DNA from: Candidatus Latescibacterota bacterium
GTDB lineage: Bacteria > Krumholzibacteriota > Krumholzibacteriia > WVZY01 > JAKEHA01
Assembly: GCA_963736125.1 (NCBI GenBank)
Contig: CAVTNQ010000002.1
Span: 292,989-356,988 of the forward strand
Reading direction: 5' to 3'
Length of the DNA: 64,000 nucleotides
The notes under the pieces were generated by a model. It worked only from the letters and a program-made list of their open reading frames with translations, was not told the origin of the DNA and made no database searches. The translations under genes and the position numbers were made by a program. This document shows positions 3,451 through 57,777 of this stretch, in pieces; the stretch's first letter is position 1; every line of letters begins with the position of its first letter.

Positions 3451-4961
3451 GTAGCCGCAACGATTGGTCATTTCAGCATACCCCGGTGGGCAAGAGCTTC
3501 GTGTGGAGCCTGGCCCTCTCCCTCCTCCCCGTTGTCGCCGCCTTCGCGGTTTCCTGGATCACCGCCCGCTTTTCCGGTCCCACCGTTTGGGGTGCGGTTT
3601 CGTGGGCGATGGCCTTCGCGACCCAGGTCCTCATCGTCGCGAAACTCGGCCTCGACCTGGGCGCGTCGCGCTTGGCGAGTGAATACGGCGTCGACAAGCC
3701 GGGTTCGCTGCGGACACTCGTCACCGTCGGAGCGAACCTCCGGCTCTGGTTCACGCTGCCGACGTCTATTGCCACGTATTTGCTGGCTCCGCAGATCGCG
3801 CATTGGTTCCACGAAGAGAGCATGGTGTGGCTGGTGCGCGTGTCGGCGGGCATCGTCTTTTGCGCCAGCGTCTACGAATTCCAGGAACAGTTCCTGATCG
3901 GCCTGAACCGCCACGCGACGGTGTCGCGCGTGCGCACTCTCATGCTTTCTTCGCGCGTGATCTTCACGGCGATCTTCGTCGCCATGGGGCTGGGCGCTGC
4001 CTGGCTCCTCTTGGGATACGTCGCCGCCTGGTTGATCGGCATGGCGGCGTTCTGGTTTCTCCTGCGCCGCTATCTGCCCGCGCACGCGCCCGAAGAGGGG
4101 GACCACGCCGCGATGCGCAAGCGCTTGCTCATGATGAGCATCCCGCTCGCGATCAGTAGTGCCTCGGTGACGATCTACATGCAGATGGACAAGCTGGTGC
4201 TGGGCTACTTCGACAATTTGCAGGAAGTCGGCCAGTACTCGCTGGCGCGTTCGGTGATGGAGGTCTCGCTGTTTCCCGCCTTCGCGCTGGTGACCACACT
4301 CCGCCCCGCGCTGGCGTCGCGCTTCACGCGCGGCGATCGTGCGTCGTGCGCGCGCTTGATCAAGGGTTCGCTGCGTCTCTCGCTGGTGGCGGGTGTGCTG
4401 TTCGGGTCGGTCTTCGTCGCCATGGCGGTACCGCTGTTGTCGCTCGTGTACTCCGACCAGTACCGGTATGCGGGCCAGCTGATGGTGTGGTTCGCCTGGG
4501 TCGTCATCATTCGCAGCCTGGGTGCGATGGTGCTGCCCGCGCTGCTCGCGGCCGACAAGATTCGGACCTATGCGTGGCTCACGGCGGGGGCCGCGGTGCT
4601 CAATTTCGGGCTGAACTTGGTGTTGATCCCGCGCATGCATTCGCGCGGGGCCATCGTGGCGACGATCATCTCGTACGGGTTGCTGTTGGCGTTCGGGTTG
4701 CGCGAGGTTTTCGAGACATTCGGGGTTCGTGTGAGCCCTCGTGCGGTCGGGGCGGGAATTCGCACGCTTCTTGCAGGCAGTCTGGTGGCCGCGGCGCTGT
4801 GGCTCGTCGTCCGCCGGATCGGAGCACCGTCGGCGGTGTGGACGGTGGCGCTGTCGGCGGCCCACGTCCTCCTGTACGGACTCCTCTTGTGGGCGTTCCG
4901 GATCATGCGCCCCGCCGAGGTTCGCCCCTTGATTGGAAGCTTGTTGACGTTAAAGGGATAG
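3447..4961 (+). CDS. Polysaccharide biosynthesis/export protein, Wzx-like flippase (MOP superfamily), multi-pass membrane
   Basis: About 12 predicted TM helices; ATG overlaps the wecB stop (ATGA); lies inside a sugar-nucleotide locus; the six-frame ORF begins upstream at 3381, but the internal ATG at 3447 gives the 4-nt coupling. Confidence 0.6.
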   Translation: MSSRNDWSFQHTPVGKSFVWSLALSLLPVVAAFAVSWITARFSGPTVWGAVSWAMAFATQVLIVAKLGLDLGASRLASEYGVDKPGSLRTLVTVGANLRLWFTLPTSIATYLLAPQIAHWFHEESMVWLVRVSAGIVFCASVYEFQEQFLIGLNRHATVSRVRTLMLSSRVIFTAIFVAMGLGAAWLLLGYVAAWLIGMAAFWFLLRRYLPAHAPEEGDHAAMRKRLLMMSIPLAISSASVTIYMQMDKLVLGYFDNLQEVGQYSLARSVMEVSLFPAFALVTTLRPALASRFTRGDRASCARLIKGSLRLSLVAGVLFGSVFVAMAVPLLSLVYSDQYRYAGQLMVWFAWVVIIRSLGAMVLPALLAADKIRTYAWLTAGAAVLNFGLNLVLIPRMHSRGAIVATIISYGLLLAFGLREVFETFGVRVSPRAVGAGIRTLLAGSLVAAALWLVVRRIGAPSAVWTVALSAAHVLLYGLLLWAFRIMRPAEVRPLIGSLLTLKG

Positions 4962-6306: not shown

Positions 6307-7230
6307 TTGACGACGAAAACGACGTGTCGGATCGCGAGTGATGTCGACCTTCTTTCGCGCGTGCAGCTCGAAGAAGTCGTCAAGTCCCTCGACGCGTACG
6401 GTTCCAAGCACGCGATCGACTTCGTGACCCAGGAAGAGCCGGAGTCGCTGAAGCTCCTGCGCGCCGCACCCAGTTCGCCCGAGCGCATGGCGGTCCTGAT
6501 GAGCGTCCTGCTCGACGGCGAGTGCGACGTCCTCGTCCTGGACGCGGCGGCCCTCCCGACCAAGATGCCGGCCGGCCTCACCATCGGGGCCTTGACCCGC
6601 CGCATCACGCCCTACGACGCGCTCATCTCCAACGACGATTGCATCCTCGACGAGCTGCGCGAGAACGCGACCCTCGTGACCAACTCTATGCGCCGCGAGG
6701 CGCAGCTGCGCTACTACCGCCCCGATCTCAAGATCGTGCACATGCAGGGAAGCATCGACGCCGTGCTGCAAAAAGTGAAAAGCGCCAAGGTCGACTGTGC
6801 GGTGGTCGCGGCCGCCGACGTGGAACGACTGAACAAGCAGGAATTCGTCGCGGAACTCTTGACCAACTCGGTGTGCGTGCCGGCCGCGGGGCAGGGCGCA
6901 CTCGCGGTGCTGATTCGTTCCTCGGAAGAGCAGTTCAAGGACACCGTCCAGTCGATCAACGACCCCGCGACGCACGGCATGCTGCGCGCCGAGTGGTCAT
7001 TTTTGGAGTACCTCGAAGTCGACCCCGCCGCACCCGTGGCGGTCCTGGCCAGCATCGAAGGCAAGGCGCTCGAGCTGGAAGGGATGGTCGCGTACCCCGA
7101 CGGCAGCGAGAAGATCCAGTGCATGGTCAAGGGCACCATCGGTAACGAAGAAGACCTCGGTCGCACGCTCGCCGTCGAGATCCTCGAATCGGGCGGGCGC
7201 GAAGTGATCGACGAGTTCCGCCTCTCGTAA
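6307..7230 (+). CDS. hemC: Hydroxymethylbilane synthase (porphobilinogen deaminase), divergent N-terminal half
   Basis: Central and C-terminal similarity to HemC (LVTNSMRREAQL, PDLKIVHMQGSIDAVLQKV, VPAAGQGALAV, C-terminal EILESGG); the N-terminal catalytic motifs are poorly conserved, so the start is uncertain. Confidence 0.55.
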   Translation: MTTKTTCRIASDVDLLSRVQLEEVVKSLDAYGSKHAIDFVTQEEPESLKLLRAAPSSPERMAVLMSVLLDGECDVLVLDAAALPTKMPAGLTIGALTRRITPYDALISNDDCILDELRENATLVTNSMRREAQLRYYRPDLKIVHMQGSIDAVLQKVKSAKVDCAVVAAADVERLNKQEFVAELLTNSVCVPAAGQGALAVLIRSSEEQFKDTVQSINDPATHGMLRAEWSFLEYLEVDPAAPVAVLASIEGKALELEGMVAYPDGSEKIQCMVKGTIGNEEDLGRTLAVEILESGGREVIDEFRLS

Positions 7231-28324: not shown

Positions 28325-28325
28325 T

Positions 28326-28365
28326 CGCGTCGCGTCGACGCGCGTCGCATCGTTTCTTCTCGCAT
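28326..28365 (+). terminator. Possible intrinsic terminator after the cystathionine gamma-synthase gene
   Basis: Perfect 12-nt palindrome CGCGTCGACGCG followed by the T-rich stretch GTTTCTTCT. Confidence 0.3.
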
Positions 28366-28615
28366 CTGCACGCGCCGACTTGCGCGATGTGCGCATCGCG
28401 GATATATTCTATGCGTCGATGTTGCCGCACGACGATTCTTGGGCGCATGAGCGCTGACTCTTCCGCAGTTTTTTCTTGACGGCCTCTTGTGGCTTCCTCT
28501 AGGGTGGCCGCAAGATATTGTACCCTGGGCGCGTCAGGACACAGCATCCTGTGTATCCCGGCCATTACGAACGGTTTAGGCGGATGCCTGGTTTTTTCAC
28601 CTCAACGCGGAGGAG

Positions 28616-28801
28616 TTGGGTATGGAAAAGCGGGACAAGAGCGGGGTGCTCATGAAGGACAAAGAGTACGTCAAATACGTACAGCTCCTGCGGAAAGCGG
28701 AACGCGACGGGCGGATAGACGGCTATCCGTGTCCGTTATGCGGATCGCGGTATGTGACGAATGAAGACGCGGAGGATTGCTGCCGCGTCATTATCTCCTG
28801 A
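28616..28801 (+). CDS. Small Cys-rich zinc-ribbon protein (hypothetical), lower GC
   Basis: 61 aa; the CPLCG...EDCC zinc-ribbon-like cysteine pairs; a good SD (GGAGGAG) 9 nt upstream; local GC is clearly lower than the surroundings. Confidence 0.4.
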   Translation: MGMEKRDKSGVLMKDKEYVKYVQLLRKAERDGRIDGYPCPLCGSRYVTNEDAEDCCRVIIS

Positions 28802-44790: not shown

Positions 44791-47458
44791 ATGACGCTCA
44801 ACCCCGGCACCAAACTCGGTCCCTACGAAATCCTCGTCCCCCTGGGCGCGGGCGGCATGGGCGAAGTCTATCGCGCGCGCGACACGCGCCTGGGCCGCGA
44901 CGTGGCCATCAAGGTGCTGCCCCAGCATCTCTCGTCGAATCGCGGAAGTGCGCGCGCGCTTCGAGCGCGAAGCGAAGACGGTCTCCGGCCTCAATCACCC
45001 GCACATCTGCACGCTCTTCGACGTCGGCCGCGAAGGCGAGACGGACTTCTTGGTGATGGAATTGATCGACGGCGAGACGCTGGCGAAGCGCCTCACGAAG
45101 GGCCCGATGGCGGTGTCGGAGGTCGTGAAACTCGGCGTGCAGATCGCCGACGCGCTGGACGGCGCGCACCGCGCCGGCATCGTCCACCGCGACTTGAAAC
45201 CCGGCAACGTGATGCTGACCAAGTCGGGTGCGAAACTCATGGATTTCGGCCTCGCGCGCGCGACCGGCCTGGCCAATCCGTCGGGCAGCGGCGCGTCGAT
45301 GGAATCCCTCACGCAATCGCCCACGATCGCACAACCGCTGACGGCGGAAGGGACGATCGTCGGCACGTTCCAGTACATGTCGCCCGAACAACTCGAGGGC
45401 AGCGAAGCCGACGCGCGCAGCGACCTGTGGGCGCTGGGATGTGTTCTCTACGAAATGACGACGGGCAAACGCGCCTTCGAGGGCAAGAGCCAAGCGTCGT
45501 TGATCGGCGCCATCATGAATTCCCAGCCGGCGCCGATCTCGCAGTTCGCCCCCATGAGCCCGCCCGCCCTCGAACGCCTGGTCAAGCAATGTCTCATTCG
45601 CGACGCCGACGAACGCTGGCAGTCGGCCGGCGATGTGCGCCGCGAGCTGGAGTGGATTGCCGGCAGTTCGTCGCAGAGTGCGGCGCCGCCGATTGCGCAT
45701 CGCCGAAGATTCTCGCGCGGAGCGATCGGCCTTTTCGCCGGCATCCTGATCGCGGCCGTGGCGATCGCGCTCTCGTTCGGTCCGGGAAGGAAACACAGCG
45801 GCGCGGGGCCTCTCATGCGCTTCAGCCTGGAAGCGCCCCGCGGATCGATCCTGACGCAACCCGCCGAACTGGCGTTGTCGCCGGATGGGACCATGCTGGC
45901 GCTGGTCGCGGCCGACAGTGTTGGAAAAGCGTCGATCTACATTCGTCCTCTGGCGAGCGCGGAAGCCCGCGTACTACCGGGGACGGAGTTGGGTTCGCTC
46001 CCGTTCTGGTCGCCCGACAGCCGCACGGTCGCTTTCTTCTCCGGGGGCAAGCTGCGCAAGATTGCCGTCGGTGGTACCGAGCCGGTGGTTCTGTGCGATG
46101 CGCCCGACGCGCGCGGCGGTGACTGGTCCAAGAACGGCGTGATCGTATTCGCCCCCAACAATCAGGGCCCGATCGCGCGCGTGTCCGAAAACGGCGGAGA
46201 TCCGGAGCCGGTGACGACGATCAACGCAGCGCGCCACGAACGCGGCCACCGCTACCCGCAGTTTCTTCCCGATGGAAAACATTTTCTCTACGTGGCGGTC
46301 GGTGCCGACGAGACGGTGGTCACCTACCGCGCGTCGATCGAAGGCGGCGATGCCGAGGAAGTCTGCCAGGGTGGATCCGAGGCACGGTGGGCGGAACCGG
46401 GATATTTGTTGTTTCTAGACAGCGGAGTCAATTCTCCCCGCCGCCGTCTGCTCGCGCAGCGCGTCGATCCGGGCACCCTGCGCGCCACCGGAGATCGGGA
46501 ACTCGTGTTGGACCCGGTCAACGCGACCAACTTTGGCTATGCGAACGTGACCTCGGATGCCCGCAACACGCTCGTGGTGCAGCATTGGAGCGACGCCCAC
46601 CGGAGCCTGGAGTGGGTCGACCGGCGCGGCGTGAAGCTGGGCACCGTAGTCGACGACCTGGCGCTCGGCACGCTGGCACTGAGTCCCGACGGCGAACGAC
46701 TGGCGTATTCCGGCCTGGACCCGCAGGACCTGTTTGTCCTGGATCTCAAGACCGGTGTCTCCACGCGGCTGACCTTCGAGAACAAGAGCATTACGACCAT
46801 CGTGTGGTCGCCCGATGGCCACACCCTCGCGTTCTCACGTCTCTCGAGCGGATGGCAGATGTACATGAAAGCCGCGGACGGCACGGGACCCGATTCACTC
46901 CTGTTTCGCGGCCCCGCGATGTTCAACTTTGCCGACAATTGGTCGGAAGACGGACGCTGGATCGTCGCCGAGTGCGCGGACAGCAGCGGCAATCGCGATC
47001 TCTGGAAGATACCGATGCAGGGTGGCGGACGGCCGTCGGTGTATCAGCGAACGCCCGCGGCGGAACAGGGGGCGTCGTTTTCTCCAGACGGTAAGTGGAT
47101 CCTGTACCAGGTTCCCGAGGGCGACGAGTTCCCGCTCTATGTGCAATCATTCCCGACGCCAGGGTCGAAGTACCAGGTGGCTTTCAAGAATCCGCTGGGC
47201 GCGGGGTGGTCCAAAAAGGGGAATGCGATTTTGGTTGGTGGTGGCGATAACGAGGTGTTTTCCATCGATGTTTCCACTGCGGGCGGTTTCCGCCAGGGCG
47301 CCACACATCGTCTCTTCCGTATGGAAGCGGCCCAAATCTTTTCCGGCATCGCACCCGGCGAGCAGAAATTTCTGATGGCGCGGCTCAAAGACGTCTCGTC
47401 GCTTTCGCGCATCGAAGTCGTCCTCAACTGGCCGTTGCTCCTGAACCACTCGAAATAG
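44791..47458 (+). CDS. Membrane Hanks-type Ser/Thr protein kinase with TolB-like beta-propeller ectodomain (paralogue 1; 1-nt insertion near 44940)
   Basis: Kinase subdomains ([29 protein letters not shown]); a single TM helix; repeated LSPDG/FSPDG/WSPDG beta-propeller blades; the N-terminal 50 aa are in a different frame from the rest (ORFs 44791.. and 44948..). Confidence 0.7.
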
Positions 47459-52869: not shown

Positions 52870-52895
52870 CACGCATCCTCTAGGGCGCAGCACCG

Positions 52896-52917
52896 CGTTT
52901 GCGCTACAATCCGGCGA
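52896..52917 (+). promoter_or_regulatory. Conserved kinase-gene leader motif CGTTTG(C/G)GCTACAATCC(G/C)GCGA immediately upstream of the ATG (possible -10 TACAAT driving a leaderless mRNA)
   Basis: The 25-nt block including the ATG is 23/25 identical to 56645..56669; TACAAT sits 7 nt before the ATG with no SD. Confidence 0.3.
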
Positions 52918-55890
52918 ATGCTTTCCCCCGGCACCCAACTCGGTCCCTACGAAATCGCGACACCGCTCGGAGCGGGCGGCATGGGCGAAGTGTATCGCGC
53001 GCGCGACACGCGCCTGGGCCGCGAAGTTGCCATCAAGGTTCTCCCGCGTCATCTCGCATCGAATCCGGAAATGCGCGCGCGCTTCGAGCGCGAAGCGTCC
53101 GCCATCGCGACACTCAAGCACCCGAGCATCGTCACCATTCATTCCATCGAGGAAGCGGCCGGCGTCCATTTCATGGTGATGGAGTTGGTGGAAGGCCGAA
53201 CCCTCGCCGACATCATCGCGGACGGCGAAATGTCACTCGAGCGATTCCTCGCGATCGCGGAGCCGCTCGCCGACGGCGTGGCGGCCGCGCACGCGAAGGG
53301 CATCATCCATCGCGACCTCAAACCCGCCAATATTCTCGTCGACGCCAACGGGCGCGTGAAGATTCTCGATTTCGGATTGGCGAAGCTCGCCGAGAAGACG
53401 TTTTCCGATTCGGACCAGACGGTCGGTTCGGAATCGCACACGCGCGACGGCCAGATTCTCGGCACGGTGGCGTACATGTCGCCCGAGCAAGCGGAGGGAC
53501 TCCCGGTCGACCTGCGATCGGACGTCTTTTCGCTGGGCATCGTCTTCTACGAGATGGCGACGGGGAAGAATCCTTTCCAGCGCGCGACCGTGGTCTCGAC
53601 GCTGTCGGCCATCTTGAAAGACACGCCCCCGTCGATCGTGGACCTGCGACCGTTGCCGGCGGCGCTCAACGACATCGTCGCGCACTGCCTCGAGAAGTCG
53701 CCCGCGCAGCGCTATCCGTCGGCGGCCGCGCTGCGCGACGACCTTCGCGTCTTGCAGACGAACACGACGGCGGAGAAGTTGGTGGCGGCGAAACGCGTGT
53801 CGCTGCTCGCAACACTGCGCAAGCCCCGTGTCGCCGTACCCGTGGCGGCGTTGGTGATCGCGCTGGGCGGGGTCGCCGCGTGGGTTCACCATCGCTCGAC
53901 GCGAACGCGCTGGGCGCGACAAGTGGCGCTGCCGGAAATCGAGCGCTTGCTCGACGCGACACCGTGGACCGGCGGTGCGGGGATGTGGAAAGCCTACGAA
54001 CTCGGTAACGAGGCCGCGCGCTTCCTCCCCGACGATCCCGTCCTGCTCGCTCTCGAAGAACGGTACTCCGAGCCGATGACCCTTCACACCGAGCCATCCG
54101 ATGCGCGCGTCTATGCCCGGCCGTTTGCGGCGGCGGATACCGCGTGGACGCTCGTCGGCAAGACTCCCATCGACACGCTGCGCTTCGTGCGCGGCGTTTT
54201 CCGAATCAAGATCGAGAAGAACGGCTACCTGACGGCCAACGACCTGTTCTGGAACGGCTTCTACGACGAGAATGATCGTGTCTACGAATTGAAACGTTCC
54301 GACCAAGTCCCGCGCGGGATGGTGTTCGTTTCGGGTCAAGCGCCGCTCGTGCGATCGGACGGAGTCACCGAGGGCGTGCACATGCCGGGCATCGAGCACT
54401 TGGCACCGCAGAAACTGGGTGATTTCTTCGTCGATCGTTTCGAAGTGACCAACCGCGTCTACAAGCAATTCGTCGACGCGGGCGGTTATGGCGATCCGTC
54501 GTTCTGGAAGGAGCCGTTCATCGAGAACGGACGCACCGTGAAATGGAAGGACGCCATGGCGCGCTTCGTCGACTCGACGCAACGCCCCGGGCCGGCCGGT
54601 TGGGAAGTGGGGGATTATCCGGACGGAAACGACCGCTTTCCCGTCACGGGCATCAGCTGGTATGAAGCGGCGGCCTTCGCCGAGTTCGCCGGTAAGCAAC
54701 TTCCCACCATCTATCACTGGGACCGCGTGGCGCTCACGTGGGCGAGCGGCGACATCGTGCCGCTGAGTAACCTGACCACCAATGGGCTCGTGAACGTGGG
54801 CAGCACGGAGGGAATGAATCGCTACGGTGCCTTCGACCTCGCCGGTAATGCACGCGAGTGGTGCGCCAACGCCACCAGCCGGGGCGATCGTTTCATCTTG
54901 GGCGGCGGTTGGAACGATCCCGCGTATGCATTCAACGACGCCTACGCGCAGTCGCCGTGGGATCGTTCGGAGACCAACGGCTTTCGGTGCATTCGATATA
55001 TCGGGGCCGACGTCGACCGCGTGGCCTTGTCGGACACCGTCGAGGTTCCATTTCGCGATTTTCTAAACGAACCGGCCGTGTCGGACGAGACGTTCGCGCT
55101 GTACACCAACCAATTCCGCTACGACAAGACTCCGCTCGACGCGGACATCGAAGGGACCTCGGAAACCGACGACTACGTGCGCCAGAAGATTGCGTTCGAC
55201 GCGGCGTACGGCGGCGAGCGCATGACGGCGTATCTGTTTCTGCCGAAGAAGAGCACGCCTCCCTATCAAACGGTCGTATACTTTCCGGGATCGGGGTCGA
55301 TCCACACGCGATCGAGCGCGGACCTCTCTCCGGGCACGAGCGATTTCTTCCTGAAGAGCGGACGCGCGTTCTTGTGGCCGGTGTTGAAGAGTACCTACGA
55401 ACGCGGCGACGACCAGACCTCCGACTACGCGGACGAAAGCAATCGCTACAAGGACCACGTGGTGATGTGGACGAAGGACATCATGCGGTCGATCGACTAC
55501 TTGGAGACGCGCGCGGACATCGACGCGAGCCGGCTCGCCTTCCTGGGCCAAAGTTGGGGAGCCGAGTTGGCGCCGGTCGTGCTCGCGGTCGAGCCGCGAC
55601 TCAAGGCGGGCATCCTGGTGGTGGCCGGACTGGGCTTTCAGCGCTCGCAGCCGGAGGCCGATCCGATGAGCTACATTCGCCACGTGCTCGCACCCGTCGT
55701 CATGCTCAATGGGAAGTACGACTTCTTCTTTCCGTACGAGACGTCGCAGGTTCCCTTCTACGAGCTTCTTGGAACTCCAAGAGATCACAAGAAGCTTGTC
55801 GTGTACGAATTCGGCCACGCCATTCCCGCGACGGATCGCGCGCGCGAATCACTGGCGTGGCTGGATCGCTATCTAGGCCCGGTTCGATGA
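52918..55890 (+). CDS. Membrane Ser/Thr protein kinase fused to an FGE-sulfatase (SUMF1-like) domain and a C-terminal alpha/beta-hydrolase domain
   Basis: Kinase motifs ([18 protein letters not shown]); a TM helix; FGE-sulfatase-like region ([36 protein letters not shown]); then an alpha/beta-hydrolase with the nucleophile elbow GQSWGA. Confidence 0.7.
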
Positions 55891-55987
55891 GTCGCGTCGC
55901 GGTTCCACATGGATAGAAGAAACGGCCATCCCGGATTTCCGGGGTGGCCGTTCTCGTGACTCGGTCGAAGCGGTGTCTACCGGGTGA

Positions 55988-56545
55988 CTACCGATAGAGC
56001 GCCTTGATACTCCCCCACGTGGACGAGTTGGTGGGGAGCGGGTTGCTCTCGACCGTGAGTTCGATCGTCCAGGTGGCGGCAACGACGGCGAATCCCGTTG
56101 TGACCTCGCACTTGTACTGCCCGTCGACGATGATCGGAATGATCGGGTTCACCAGGCTGAACGGGGCATTCGTGATGTTGTCGCCGGCCTTCGCCACCGC
56201 ATGGGACACGACGGTTCCAAACGGCGGGGCCGCGGCGACCGGGCCGGACATGTCGAAGCTTGAAATGTCGCGGGGGTTGCTCGCAGAATACACCCAATGG
56301 ATGCTCACGATCGAAAGACCGGCGGGCAGGTTGGCGAAGAATGAGTCCTGCGTATTCGACGTCGGCGTGGGTCCAATGGTGCCCGTCCATACGTTGACGC
56401 CGATATCGAGCACGAACGTGGGCGGGTTGGATTGGTCGAGATCGCCATCGACCGCTTCGTTATAGCTGACGGGCGCGGCCACGCCTGCCCCGACGAGGGC
56501 CAGCGATACCAAAGCGCACAGGAAGCCGACTCTTGCAGTTGTCAT
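55988..56545 (-). CDS. Hypothetical secreted protein
   Basis: ATG at 56545 preceded by a GGAGG SD; signal peptide MTTARVGFLCALVSLALVGAGVAAP; about 185 aa; no confident domain assignment. Confidence 0.5.
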   Translation of the reverse strand: MTTARVGFLCALVSLALVGAGVAAPVSYNEAVDGDLDQSNPPTFVLDIGVNVWTGTIGPTPTSNTQDSFFANLPAGLSIVSIHWVYSASNPRDISSFDMSGPVAAAPPFGTVVSHAVAKAGDNITNAPFSLVNPIIPIIVDGQYKCEVTTGFAVVAATWTIELTVESNPLPTNSSTWGSIKALYR

Positions 56546-56644
56546 GGGGAAACCTCCGATTGAGTTGTTGTGATTACGTAATGGCTCCGTCCGGTCTCCC
56601 ACTTTCGTTCTCGGACACTTAACAGCGTACACGACTTGGTTCCC

Positions 56645-56720
56645 CGTTTGGGCTACAATCCCGCGAATGCGAATCATCGGAAAAAACATCTCGCATTACG
56701 AGATCGTCGAGAGGAGGTGA
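56645..56720 (+). other. Relic 5' end of a Ser/Thr kinase paralogue: the conserved leader motif plus a 17-codon ORF (MRIIGKNISHYEIVERR) that ends in the selD ribosome-binding site
   Basis: Leader motif 23/25 identical to the one upstream of kinase 4; the peptide keeps the G5 and YEI(V/A) register of the kinase N-termini, then stops; its final codons (AGG AGG TGA) form the SD for selD. Confidence 0.45.
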
Positions 56721-56727
56721 CAATCCC

Positions 56728-57777
56728 ATGGCCGAGAAAGATCGCTTGTTTCGCCTGACCGAATTCGCGTCATGCGCCGGTTGAGCCTCTAAATTCAGCG
56801 CGGCGGGGCTGCGCGAAATACTCGGCAAGTTGCCGGTTCCGGCCGATCCGAATGTATTGGTGGGTCACGCCGGGAGCGACGACGCCGGGGTCTATCGACT
56901 CTCGGACGACTCCGCGATGGTAGTCACGGTGGATTTCTTTACACCCATCGTCGACGACGCGTACGACTACGGCCGTGTTGCGGCGACCAACTCGCTCTCC
57001 GACGTGTACGCGATGGGCGGGCGCCCGATCGTGGCACTCAACATTGCGGGCTTTCCGGAGAACACGATTCCACCCGACGTGCTGGGCGAGATCATCCGCG
57101 GAGGCGCCGACGTCGCGCGCGCGGCGGGGGTTTCGATCCTGGGCGGTCACACCGTCAACGACGCCGAAGTGAAATACGGGCTCGCAGTGATCGGTATGAT
57201 CGACCCGCGTCGCATCGTGCGCAACGCCGGTGCGCGCGCGGGAGACGTCTTGATATTGACGAAGGCGATCGGAACCGGCGTGCTCGCGACGGCCTTGAAG
57301 CAGCGCACGCTTTCTCCCGAGCGAACGCGCGCGTTGGTCGCGTCGATGACGCAGCTCAATCGTGACGCCGCGGAGGCGATGCTTCGCCACGACCCGCACG
57401 CGTGCACGGACATCACCGGCTACGGGCTCGTCGGTCACGCCAACGAAATGGCGGAGGGAGGCAATGTCACCATCGTGCTGCGCGCGGCCGGCGTTCCGGT
57501 GCTCGAAGGCGCCCGCGAAGCAGTAGAGCAAGGCCACCTCACCGGCGGCGGCAAGGCGACGCGTCGTTTCATGCAGGACAAGGCGCGCGTCTCATCGGCA
57601 ATCGACGAGACGACGACGTCTCTGCTCTTCGACCCGCAGACGTCGGGCGGCTTGTTGATCGCGGTCGCACCCGAGCGCGCGCCCGCGTTGCTGGCCGAAC
57701 TCAAGCCGATGCATCCGCACGCCGCGATTGTCGGCGAGTGCATCGCGCGTCGCGACGTCTCCATCATCGTCGAATGA
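56728..57777 (+). CDS. selD: Selenide, water dikinase (selenophosphate synthetase), a selenoprotein with an in-frame UGA (Sec) at 56782-56784
   Basis: ATG at 56728 preceded by GGAGG; the N-terminus MAEKDRLFRLTEFASCAG-U-ASKFS aligns with the SelD motif RLTQYSHGAGCGCK with TGA at the Cys/Sec position; the rest (NVLVG..DDAGVY, TVDFFTPIVDD, RVAATNSLSDVYAMGG) is canonical SelD; the ORF track only reports the part after the TGA (56830..57777). Confidence 0.8.
56794..56817 (+). promoter_or_regulatory. Candidate bacterial SECIS hairpin downstream of the selD UGA
   Basis: UUC-A-GCGCGG / CGGGG loop / CUGCGC-GAA: a 9-bp stem with one bulged A and an apical loop about 22 nt after the UGA. Confidence 0.35.

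What the first reader, a model, noticed from the sequence alone, without database searches (positions are those of the whole stretch)
56645..56727. Relic 5' end of a fifth kinase gene co-opted as the upstream region and ribosome-binding site of selD, plus a shared leader motif that suggests leaderless kinase transcripts
The 25 nt ending at the kinase-4 ATG (CGTTTGCGCTACAATCCGGCGAATG, 52896..52920) recur with 23/25 identity at 56645..56669. There they are followed by a 17-codon ORF (MRIIGKNISHYEIVERR) that keeps the register of the kinase N-termini (G5, YEI) and then stops. Its last codons, AGG AGG TGA, supply the Shine-Dalgarno sequence for selD 7 nt upstream of its ATG. A weaker copy (GGACAATCCGCGGCG) lies upstream of kinase 1. 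The motif contains TACAAT exactly 7 nt before the ATG with no SD, the geometry expected for a -10 box that drives a leaderless mRNA. So this appears to be a degraded kinase gene whose promoter and first codons survive, possibly as a regulatory upstream ORF for selD.
Basis: seen in the sequence. Interest (0 to 1): 0.55.

Follow-up and report, generated by a model that had tools for sequence, protein, structure and literature searches.

The report
Kinase gene stump upstream of selD
A 17-codon reading frame just upstream of the selenium-metabolism gene selD is the leftover start of a lost protein-kinase gene; its conserved promoter-like sequence survives and probably now drives selD, a tidy but fairly ordinary case of gene decay with promoter retention.

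Summary
The 25-mer before kinase 4 recurs at 56645..56669 with 23/25 identity (no such match in 100 shuffles), followed by a 17-codon ORF that ends 7 nt before selD. Related loci confirm the relic reading. At the same position, divergent from a conserved 185-aa gene, one relative (L036) has the motif plus an intact PD40-type kinase. Another (L011/L012) has the motif plus a decayed stump of about 33 codons. The window and its sister strain L006 keep only 14 codons. The motif (GTTTGnGnTAnAAT-N7-ATG) is a conserved island; the stump and the flanking DNA have decayed. It also precedes one FGE- or TPR-type kinase per array in relatives, always 7 nt from the ATG and without a Shine-Dalgarno sequence. 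This fits a -10 element for a leaderless transcript, but that is untested. The AGGAGGTGA Shine-Dalgarno/stop belongs to selD's own ribosome-binding site, conserved in all relatives. The "weak third copy" before kinase 1 is chance. The motif does not mark all kinase paralogues. A convergent gene and a strong hairpin separate selD from the kinase array here, so the retained promoter plausibly supplies selD transcription. Interest is modest.

The parts
52890..52917 (+). Motif copy 1 (CCGCGTTTGCGCTACAATCCGGCGA), directly before the kinase 4 ATG. The -10-like TACAAT is at 52905..52910, 7 nt from the ATG, with no SD.
   Evidence: The orthologous intergenic region is conserved in L008 and L009, and before the TPR-type kinase of L013/L016.
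52918..55890 (+). Kinase 4: a Ser/Thr kinase with FGE-sulfatase and hydrolase-like C-terminal domains (990 aa).
   Evidence: Pfam Pkinase 1.3e-49 and FGE-sulfatase 4.6e-20. Orthologues in L008, L009 and L010.
55922..55951 (.). GC-rich 13-bp hairpin between the convergent kinase 4 and 185-aa genes; a likely bidirectional terminator that separates selD from the kinase array.
   Evidence: Fold z = -3.9 on the minus strand and -3.8 on the plus strand, with 0 of 200 shuffles folding as well. On the minus strand it is followed by UUUCUUCUAU.
55988..56545 (-). Gene for a 185-aa protein with an N-terminal hydrophobic stretch (no Pfam family), divergent from selD.
   Evidence: 22 homologues, some named Candidatus Krumholzibacteria. 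Found between the kinase array and selD, or a kinase, in L011, L013-L016 and L036.
56546..56634 (.). The half of the divergent intergenic region nearest the 185-aa gene; homologous to L013-type loci and probably that gene's own promoter and leader.
   Evidence: Local alignment z = 7.8 against L013, about 0 against L036 and L011.
56639..56666 (+). Motif copy 2 (CCCCGTTTGGGCTACAATCCCGCGA). The -10-like TACAAT is at 56654..56659, 7 nt before the mini-ORF ATG. Inferred to be the retained promoter of the lost kinase, now serving selD.
   Evidence: It is the only block of the selD-proximal intergenic region conserved with L036 and L011. 22/25 identical to the kinase 4 copy, against 26/48 for the stump.
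56667..56720 (+). 17-codon mini-ORF MRIIGKNISHYEIVERR*. Codons 1-14 (56667..56708) are the decayed 5' stump of a kinase gene. The last codons lie in the selD RBS.
   Evidence: Positional homologues: an intact kinase in L036 and a stump of about 33 codons in L011/L012. Identical in sister strain L006.
56711..56727 (+). selD ribosome-binding region GAGGAGGTGACAATCCC: the ancestral SD, with up to 9 nt complementary to the usual 16S rRNA 3' end. It contains the mini-ORF stop TGA at 56718..56720.
   Evidence: blastn homology to relatives resumes at 56711/56712. Same sequence in L007, L009 and L010, and near-identical in L008 (AAGGAGGTGACAATCTC). In L007 a full-length kinase ORF ends at this same TGA.
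56728..57777 (+). selD (selenide, water dikinase), 349 codons, with an in-frame TGA (probable selenocysteine) at codon 19 (56782..56784).
   Evidence: The motif SCAG-TGA-ASK is conserved in relatives.
56794..56817 (+). Hairpin 9 nt after the selD TGA; a candidate SECIS element.
   Evidence: One pair changes from G-U to A-U in L007 and L013. No Rfam hit at gathering threshold.

Best explanation
The mini-ORF is the 5' stump of a PD40-type Ser/Thr kinase gene that once lay between the 185-aa gene and selD, or was recombined in from such a locus. Its body is gone. What survives is a motif of about 28 nt (GTTTGnGnTAnAAT, then 7 nt, then ATG) and 14 decayed codons, joined in frame to selD's own strong Shine-Dalgarno sequence. 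The motif is most likely the core promoter of the lost kinase. Its -10-like hexamer sits so close to the ATG that the transcript would begin at or 1 nt before the start codon, which makes it leaderless. In this genome a convergent gene and a strong hairpin cut selD off from the kinase array. In close relatives the last kinase of that array directly abuts selD. The retained promoter therefore probably supplies selD transcription, and selD mRNA would carry a 61-nt leader that starts with the mini-ORF. If that is correct, ribosomes loading on the 5'-terminal AUG would stop at the UGA inside the selD SD, 7 nt before the selD AUG. That is the same stop-start geometry by which a full-length kinase is juxtaposed to selD in relative L007. 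SHOWN: the homology, the three decay states, the conservation of the motif above its surroundings, and the ancestry of the SD. INFERRED: promoter activity, the transcription start, translation of the mini-ORF, and any effect on selD.
For: The repeat is far beyond chance. The same position in relatives shows three states: L036 has the motif plus an intact kinase ORF of at least 116 aa; L011/L012 has the motif plus about 120 nt colinear with kinase 5' ends through the P-loop, but broken; the window and L006 have 14 codons. The L036 kinase is 78-84% identical to PD40 kinases, closest to the L007 kinase that abuts selD. Motif against stump: 22/25 against 26/48, Fisher p = 0.004. L011 and L036 share 28/30 identical bases just before the ATG, but identity falls off on both sides. 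The window's motif-plus-stump segment aligns to L036 and L011 (z = 4.2 and 3.2), while its flank does not. All six motif-bearing loci read keep T-A-n-A-A-T (only position 3 varies, C or G) and the 7-nt spacing, while the spacer sequence varies and contains no SD. TACAAT occurs only 3 times in the window, all in intergenic DNA. Ten of 18 unrelated metagenome matches to the motif begin an ORF of at least 100 codons exactly at the ATG, against a 23% background (p = 0.003). [quoted passage not shown] The selD RBS is ancestral. The hairpin 55922..55951 has z about -3.9.
Against: There are no transcription start or expression data. Neither copy has a canonical -35, and the sigma-70 scan does not call either one. 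The canonical +1 would be the A just before the ATG, giving a 1-nt leader. Leaderless geometry is rare in this organism: only 1 long ORF in the 64-kb window has it, and selD and the 185-aa gene use strong SDs. L013-L016 have the same arrangement of 184-aa gene and selD without the motif, so selD can be expressed without it. The relic's motif is closer to the window's own kinase 4 copy (22/25) than to its positional homologues (18-19/25). The intergenic region is a mosaic. The history may therefore involve gene conversion or recombination rather than simple deletion in place. An open frame of 17 codons is not evidence of selection, since roughly half of random 14-codon stretches are open. The stump alone is only about 50% identical to any kinase 5' end.
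Confidence: 0.6

Rival explanations
1. The second motif copy is only a neutral by-product of recent recombination or gene conversion within the highly recombinogenic kinase array, templated by the kinase 4 upstream region. It has no promoter role at selD, and selD is transcribed from elsewhere or by read-through.
For: The relic motif is closer to the window's own kinase 4 copy (22/25) than to the positional homologues L036 and L011 (19/25 and 18/25). The intergenic region is a mosaic. The array clearly rearranges often: every relative has a different gene order, and there are several frameshifted kinases. L013-L016 express selD without the motif.
Against: Conversion limited to 28 nt that ends exactly at the ATG would be odd. 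The same motif is also kept next to the 185-aa gene in L036 and L011, where the adjacent sequence has decayed or diverged. A strong hairpin and a convergent gene lie between kinase 4 and selD. The -10-like positions and the spacing are exactly what is preserved.
Confidence: 0.15
2. The conserved motif is not a promoter. It is a binding site for a regulator, or an RNA-level element for SD-independent internal initiation on read-through transcripts. It is shared by a subset of kinase genes and was inherited by the stump.
For: Conservation extends beyond the hexamer: GTTTG upstream and C..CG downstream are invariant in five copies. There is no -35. Kinase 4 lies only 48 nt after kinase 3, so read-through transcripts are likely.
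Against: The invariant T-A-n-A-A-T with a variable third position is the classic -10 pattern. Unrelated genes in other bacteria with the same motif start their ORFs exactly at the ATG. No palindrome or repeat typical of an operator is visible in the motif (sequence inspection).
Confidence: 0.15
3. The mini-ORF is a selected regulatory leader peptide for selD, acting by attenuation or translational coupling, rather than a passive remnant. Its translation opens or occludes the selD SD.
For: The stop codon lies inside the SD, 7 nt from the selD AUG, the same geometry as the kinase-selD junction in L007. The predicted helix pairing the SD with GCCUCU just after the Sec codon is kept in 6 of 6 relatives. 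There is a small hairpin inside the ORF. Leaderless short ORFs are known to regulate downstream genes in mycobacteria (bioRxiv 10.1101/834739).
Against: Only two near-identical strains carry it, so there is no evidence of coding constraint. The folds are not more stable than shuffles (z = 0.59 and -0.29). The helix pairs never vary, so there is no covariation. The peptide has no run of residues suggestive of a sensor.
Confidence: 0.1
4. The similarity is coincidental.
For: The 10-nt core GCTACAATCC on its own is not significant: 45 of 100 shuffles give at least 2 hits at up to 1 mismatch.
Against: None of 100 shuffles gave any 25-mer match at up to 3 mismatches. The same motif occurs at homologous positions in five other loci.
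Confidence: 0.01

Closest known systems
[quoted passage not shown] 2015, PMC4633059; Canestrari et al. 2020, bioRxiv 10.1101/834739)
   Same: A short unannotated ORF whose ATG would sit at the transcript 5' end, directly downstream of a -10 element. It is followed by an annotated gene, and its stop is close to that gene's start.
   Different: In mycobacteria, transcription starts and translation were measured, and some peptides (polycysteine) have a shown sensory role. Here everything after the sequence is inferred. The organism is an uncultured FCB-group bacterium in which leaderless geometry looks rare. The ORF is demonstrably the stump of a decayed gene, not a dedicated leader peptide.
Translational coupling by termination-reinitiation at closely spaced stop and start codons in bacterial operons (general knowledge; summarised in the introduction of PMC4633059)
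   Same: The stop lies 7 nt before the next AUG and inside its SD. The identical junction is used by a full-length kinase and selD in relative L007.
   Different: The upstream cistron is only 17 codons and would be initiated without a leader. Coupling has not been tested.
Gene remnants or pseudogene fragments that keep their promoter after the body of the gene is deleted (general concept; my own knowledge, no specific paper checked)
   Same: The promoter-proximal sequence is conserved while the coding remnant decays. The downstream gene inherits the transcription signal.
   Different: The remnant is joined in frame to the next gene's RBS. Three decay stages of the same locus can be seen in related genomes.
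Selenocysteine-containing SelD (Sec in place of the catalytic Cys in the N-terminal loop; my own knowledge)
   Same: The in-frame TGA lies where, from memory, E. coli SelD has its N-terminal catalytic Cys (not aligned here). A hairpin follows 9 nt downstream.
   Different: This concerns the neighbouring gene, not the finding itself. No Rfam SECIS model matched.

Membership tests
Kinase gene remnant (pseudogene fragment of a Pkinase-family Ser/Thr kinase) | Sequence colinear with the 5' end of intact paralogues, in the same register from the start codon | tested here: met
   M1, G5, Y11-E12-I13 and TACGAGATCG (9/10) are in register with kinase 4. The stump alone is only about 50% identical in nucleotides, so this rests partly on the flanking motif.
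Kinase gene remnant (pseudogene fragment of a Pkinase-family Ser/Thr kinase) | An intact gene at the homologous position in related genomes | tested here: met
   L036: 185-aa gene, motif, then an intact kinase ORF of at least 116 aa. L011/L012 shows an intermediate decayed stump.
Kinase gene remnant (pseudogene fragment of a Pkinase-family Ser/Thr kinase) | Loss of the catalytic domain | tested here: met
   The ORF stops after 17 codons, before the P-loop GxGxxG. Homology to relatives' selD RBS resumes at 56711.
Bacterial leaderless mRNA / leaderless short ORF | -10 promoter element about 6-8 nt upstream of the start codon, with no room for an SD | tested here: met
   TACAAT or TAGAAT lies exactly 7 nt before the ATG in six copies, and the spacers are GC-rich without an SD.
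Bacterial leaderless mRNA / leaderless short ORF | Transcription start mapped at the A (or G) of the start codon | not testable with these tools
   No transcriptome data. The canonical spacing would put +1 at the A one base before the ATG.
Bacterial leaderless mRNA / leaderless short ORF | Evidence that the ORF is translated (ribosome profiling, reporter or peptide) | not testable with these tools
   None available. The organism is uncultured.
Sigma-70-type promoter | -35 hexamer at 16-18 nt from the -10 hexamer | tested here: not met
   The consensus scan finds no -35/-10 pair at either copy. There is a conserved GTTTG 3 nt upstream of the hexamer, and a (T)CTCT(C/A)GG element 20-21 nt upstream in most copies, but it lies about 39 nt upstream in the relic copy.
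Regulatory upstream ORF / leader peptide of selD | Conservation of the ORF (frame, length or peptide) across diverged genomes with the same arrangement | tested here: inconclusive
   Only the window and the 99.8% identical L006 carry it. L013-L016 have an unrelated 16-codon ORF ending at the same TGA.
Kinase-specific regulon motif marking all paralogues | Presence upstream of most kinase paralogues | tested here: not met
   Absent before kinases 1-3 and the other PD40 kinases in all loci examined. Exact-pattern scans of genome and metagenome collections gave only non-kinase hits.

The most novel reading that the evidence does not exclude
The stump has been exapted as a translated leaderless upstream ORF that controls synthesis of a selenocysteine-containing SelD. 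Ribosomes that start at the 5'-terminal AUG terminate on the UGA inside the selD Shine-Dalgarno and open a conserved long-range helix. That helix pairs the SD and AUG with the codons flanking the Sec-UGA. selD translation would then be tied to leaderless initiation capacity or to selenium status. In parallel, GTTTGnGnTAnAAT-N7-ATG would define a leaderless promoter class used for selected signalling kinases in an FCB-group lineage.
Probability: 0.1. Interest if true: 0.6.

Novelty: new member of a known kind. Interest (0 to 1): 0.3.

Why it matters
The locus is a clean natural series, from intact gene to decayed stump to 14-codon stump. It shows how a promoter can outlive its gene and be inherited by the neighbouring gene, and how short upstream ORFs can arise from gene remnants rather than being built de novo. 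It also gives sequence-level evidence for leaderless gene starts in an uncultured Latescibacterota/Krumholzibacteria-like lineage, where nothing is known about transcription or translation signals. On the practical side, gene callers mis-start kinase 4 and truncate the selenoprotein selD. None of this overturns current understanding.

Tried and rejected
1. Looked up exact protein matches for kinase 4 and for P0001, the SelD on a 2-Mb contig. Neither is on record, so the source genome could not be scanned as a whole.
2. Scanned genome contigs with TGNGCTACAATCCNGCGAATG. It gave 5 hits, about the chance level, none of them a kinase or from this clade.
3. Scanned metagenome contigs with GTTTGNGNTACAATNCNNCGNATG. 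It gave 18 hits, none from this clade. They were useful only as evidence that the geometry is a generic leaderless one.
4. My first idea after seeing L007 was that the two motif copies are direct repeats flanking an inserted kinase 4 + 185-aa segment. I dropped it. Kinase 4 with its motif is orthologous in L008 and L009 without the 185-aa gene, only 55897..56710 is window-specific, and the 185-aa gene lies next to selD in the distant relatives L013-L016.
5. I suspected the stump came from a different 'ISHY'-type kinase subfamily. No kinase with such an N-terminus occurs in any clade locus, so the resemblance is a recollection only and is probably due to decay.
6. Rfam and tRNA scans of the window found nothing.
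7. Single-sequence folds of the selD leader and the SECIS region are no more stable than shuffles.
8. Two contig look-ups returned no DNA because the sample files were too large.

Full report
**1. The observation**

- CGTTTGCGCTACAATCCGGCGAATG (52896..52920) ends at the ATG of kinase 4, whose ORF is 52918..55890.
- CGTTTGGGCTACAATCCCGCGAATG (56645..56669) matches it at 23/25, or 25/28 when extended three bases upstream.
- Allowing 3 mismatches, these are the only two hits in the window. None of 100 dinucleotide-preserving shuffles produced a hit. The 10-nt core alone would not be significant.
- The ORF 56667..56720 reads MRIIGKNISHYEIVERR*. G5 and Y11-E12-I13 are in register with kinase 4 ([13 protein letters not shown]).
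- Its stop TGA lies within AGGAGGTGA, 7 nt before the selD ATG. That ATG is at 56728, and selD is 56728..57777.
- Upstream of the motif the two regions are unrelated. Downstream of the ATG they share only about 50% of bases.

**2. The genes around it**

- Kinases 2 and 3 are Pkinase + PD40 proteins. Kinase 4 is Pkinase + FGE-sulfatase + a hydrolase-like domain. The selD product has AIRS and AIRS_C domains.
- selD carries an in-frame TGA at codon 19 in the motif SCAG-TGA-ASK, so it probably encodes a selenocysteine SelD.
- A 185-aa protein with no Pfam family is encoded on the minus strand at 55988..56545. It is convergent with kinase 4 and divergent from selD.
- Between kinase 4 and that gene lies a 13-bp GC-rich hairpin (55922..55951). 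Its fold z is about -3.9 on both strands, and 0 of 200 shuffles fold as well.
- The nearest named relatives of SelD and the 185-aa protein are labelled Candidatus Latescibacterota and Candidatus Krumholzibacteria.

**3. Related loci**

SelD homologues led to several loci.

| Locus | SelD identity to window | Gene order upstream of selD |
|---|---|---|
| L006 | 100% (DNA 99.77% over 6.5 kb) | Same structure as the window, identical mini-ORF |
| L008 | 91% | FGE-kinase, then PD40-kinase, then selD |
| L009 | 88% | FGE-kinase, then selD |
| L010 | 87% | FGE-kinase, then selD |
| L007 | 87% | PD40-kinase, then selD |

blastn shows that window 55897..56710 has no counterpart in L009 or L010, where the gap is 11 nt. 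In L008 a whole kinase occupies that site.

The block GAGGAGGTGACAATCCCATG precedes selD in L007, L009 and L010, and in L008 with two base differences (AAGGAGGTGACAATCTCATG). In L007 the full-length kinase ORF ends at the very TGA inside it. The Shine-Dalgarno sequence and stop that close the mini-ORF are therefore selD's own ancestral ribosome-binding site, not a contribution of the relic.

**4. The relic is real: three states of one locus**

Homologues of the 185-aa protein gave the decisive loci.
- **L013-L016** (protein 66% identical, SelD 75%). The 184-aa gene is already divergent from selD, with the kinase array converging on it. No motif lies between them.
- **L011/L012** (79%). Divergent from the 185-aa gene lies GGTTTGCGATACAATGCCGCGGATG. 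About 120 nt follow that are colinear with real kinase 5' ends through the P-loop codons, but the frame is broken. An intact kinase comes next.
- **L036** (75%). The same motif is followed by an intact kinase [34 protein letters not shown]..., open to the contig end.
- **Window and L006.** Only a 14-codon stump remains.

The intact L036 kinase is 78-84% identical to PD40-type kinases. It is closest to the L007 kinase that abuts selD, and only 57-62% identical to the FGE/TPR types.

**5. The motif is a conserved island**

- Relative to kinase 4, the relic keeps 22/25 bases before the ATG but only 26/48 after it (Fisher p = 0.004).
- L011 and L036 share 28/30 identical bases just before the ATG. 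Identity falls away on both sides.
- The window's motif-plus-stump segment aligns with L036 and L011 (z = 4.2 and 3.2). The rest of the intergenic region does not.
- The motif also precedes the FGE-type kinase in the window, L006, L008 and L009, and the TPR-type kinase in L013/L016 (GCGTTTGCGATAGAATCCGCCGC-ATG). It is absent before all other PD40 kinases.
- Across the copies, the hexamer is T-A-n-A-A-T with only position 3 varying, and the distance to the ATG is always 7 nt. The spacer varies and never holds an SD.
- TACAAT occurs only 3 times in both strands of the window, all in intergenic DNA.

**6. Is it a leaderless promoter?**

For:
- A hexamer 7 nt from the ATG leaves no room for a leader.
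- No alternative translation signal is present.
- The start codon assignment is secure, because all paralogues begin M + 10-11 residues before the conserved YEI.
- An exact-pattern scan of metagenomes returned 18 unrelated loci. In 10 of them an ORF of at least 100 codons starts exactly at the motif's ATG, against 23% for all ATGs in those loci (p = 0.003). Several are evident true N-termini.
- In mycobacteria a 5'-terminal ATG or GTG is necessary and sufficient for leaderless initiation, and leaderless short ORFs often head operons (PMC4633059; bioRxiv 10.1101/834739).

Against:
- There is no canonical -35.
- Only one long ORF in this window has the geometry.
- There are no expression data.

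**7. The likely mechanism at selD**

In close relatives selD follows a kinase within 10-40 nt, which fits co-transcription with the array. In the window, the convergent 185-aa gene and the hairpin interrupt that. The retained kinase promoter is the obvious candidate to transcribe selD, giving a 61-nt leader that begins with the mini-ORF. Translation of the mini-ORF would end inside the selD SD, 7 nt before its AUG, which is the geometry of the kinase-selD junction in L007. Whether this helps, hinders or does nothing to selD translation cannot be decided. A consensus fold pairs the SD with GCCUCU just after the Sec codon in 6 of 6 relatives, but the pairs never vary. Single-sequence folds are not unusually stable.

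**8. What is not resolved**

- The window's intergenic region is a mosaic. The half nearest the 185-aa gene resembles L013 (z = 7.8). The motif and stump resemble L036 and L011.
- The relic's motif is closer to the window's own kinase 4 copy than to its positional homologues.
- With the loci in hand I cannot separate three histories: deletion of a fifth kinase in place, import of a fragment by recombination, or gene conversion between promoter copies.
- The arrays are clearly unstable. Every relative has a different order, and several kinases are frameshifted.

**9.

- The 'weaker copy' before kinase 1 is not conserved in the orthologous L009 region although its flanks are. ACAATCC occurs 5 times in the window. 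I treat it as chance.
- The motif does not mark all kinase paralogues.
- The exact-pattern genome scan found 5 hits, about the chance level, and none was a kinase.

**10. Verdict**

The SD co-option and the third copy are rejected. Leaderless promoter function is plausible but inferred. This is a new example of known phenomena: a gene remnant with a retained promoter, and a candidate leaderless short upstream ORF. Interest is modest.

Noticed in passing
window 56728..57777 (TGA at 56782..56784; hairpin 56794..56817): selD has an in-frame TGA at codon 19 (SCAG-TGA-ASK), so it is probably a selenocysteine-containing SelD, with a candidate SECIS hairpin 9 nt downstream. Gene callers truncate it to 286-319 aa in every relative. 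No Rfam SECIS family matched.
   Followed up: partly
window 56713..56790: The consensus fold pairs the selD Shine-Dalgarno GGAGGU (56713..56718) with GCCUCU (56785..56790) just after the Sec TGA, and pairs the region around the AUG with the codons before the TGA. The pairing is kept in 6 of 6 relatives, but the bases never vary, so there is no covariation support.
   Followed up: partly
window 44791..47458: Kinase 1 is split by a frameshift near 44938 (ORFs 44791..46122 and 44948..47458). Sister strain L006 has a split kinase 2, and L009 has several kinase fragments. The tandem kinase array carries pseudogenes and differs in gene order in every relative.
   Followed up: partly
window 56681..56704: Inside the mini-ORF, an A6 run is followed by a perfect small hairpin (AUCUCG-CAUUA-CGAGAU). 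Read on the minus strand it scores as a weak terminator-like site. It may be chance.
   Followed up: no
window 28517..28522, minus strand (intergenic gap 28325..28722): The only other TACAAT in the window lies in a 400-nt gap between two convergent genes, with no obvious ORF or Rfam match downstream. It could be a promoter for a small transcript.
   Followed up: no
L013 about 4843..4900, minus strand (same in L014-L016): An unrelated 16-codon ORF (MLMPRASNSGGAPWRR*) also ends at the TGA inside the selD Shine-Dalgarno. In L007 a full-length kinase ends at that same TGA. The recurrent stop there may simply reflect the SD sequence GGAGGTGA.
   Followed up: no
L010 about 6784..6803; L008 about 7088..7101: Other kinase starts have -10-like hexamers close to the ATG: TAGAAT 10 nt before the FGE-kinase of L010, and TAGAGT 8 nt before the PD40 kinase that precedes selD in L008. 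This hints at degenerate versions of the same promoter.
   Followed up: no
L006 6002 against 6065; L008 4058 against 4067: Automatic gene calls mis-start the motif-bearing kinase. In L006 the call uses an internal ATG 21 codons in. In L008 it uses an upstream ATG that overlaps the TACAAT hexamer. This is what would be expected if the true start lacks an SD.
   Followed up: partly
L007 6709..7168: A short ORF (MATPQDPEFEARV...) lies between two kinases in L007. It was not called as a gene in the look-up, and by eye it resembles a small thioesterase-fold protein. Not checked against any family library.
   Followed up: no
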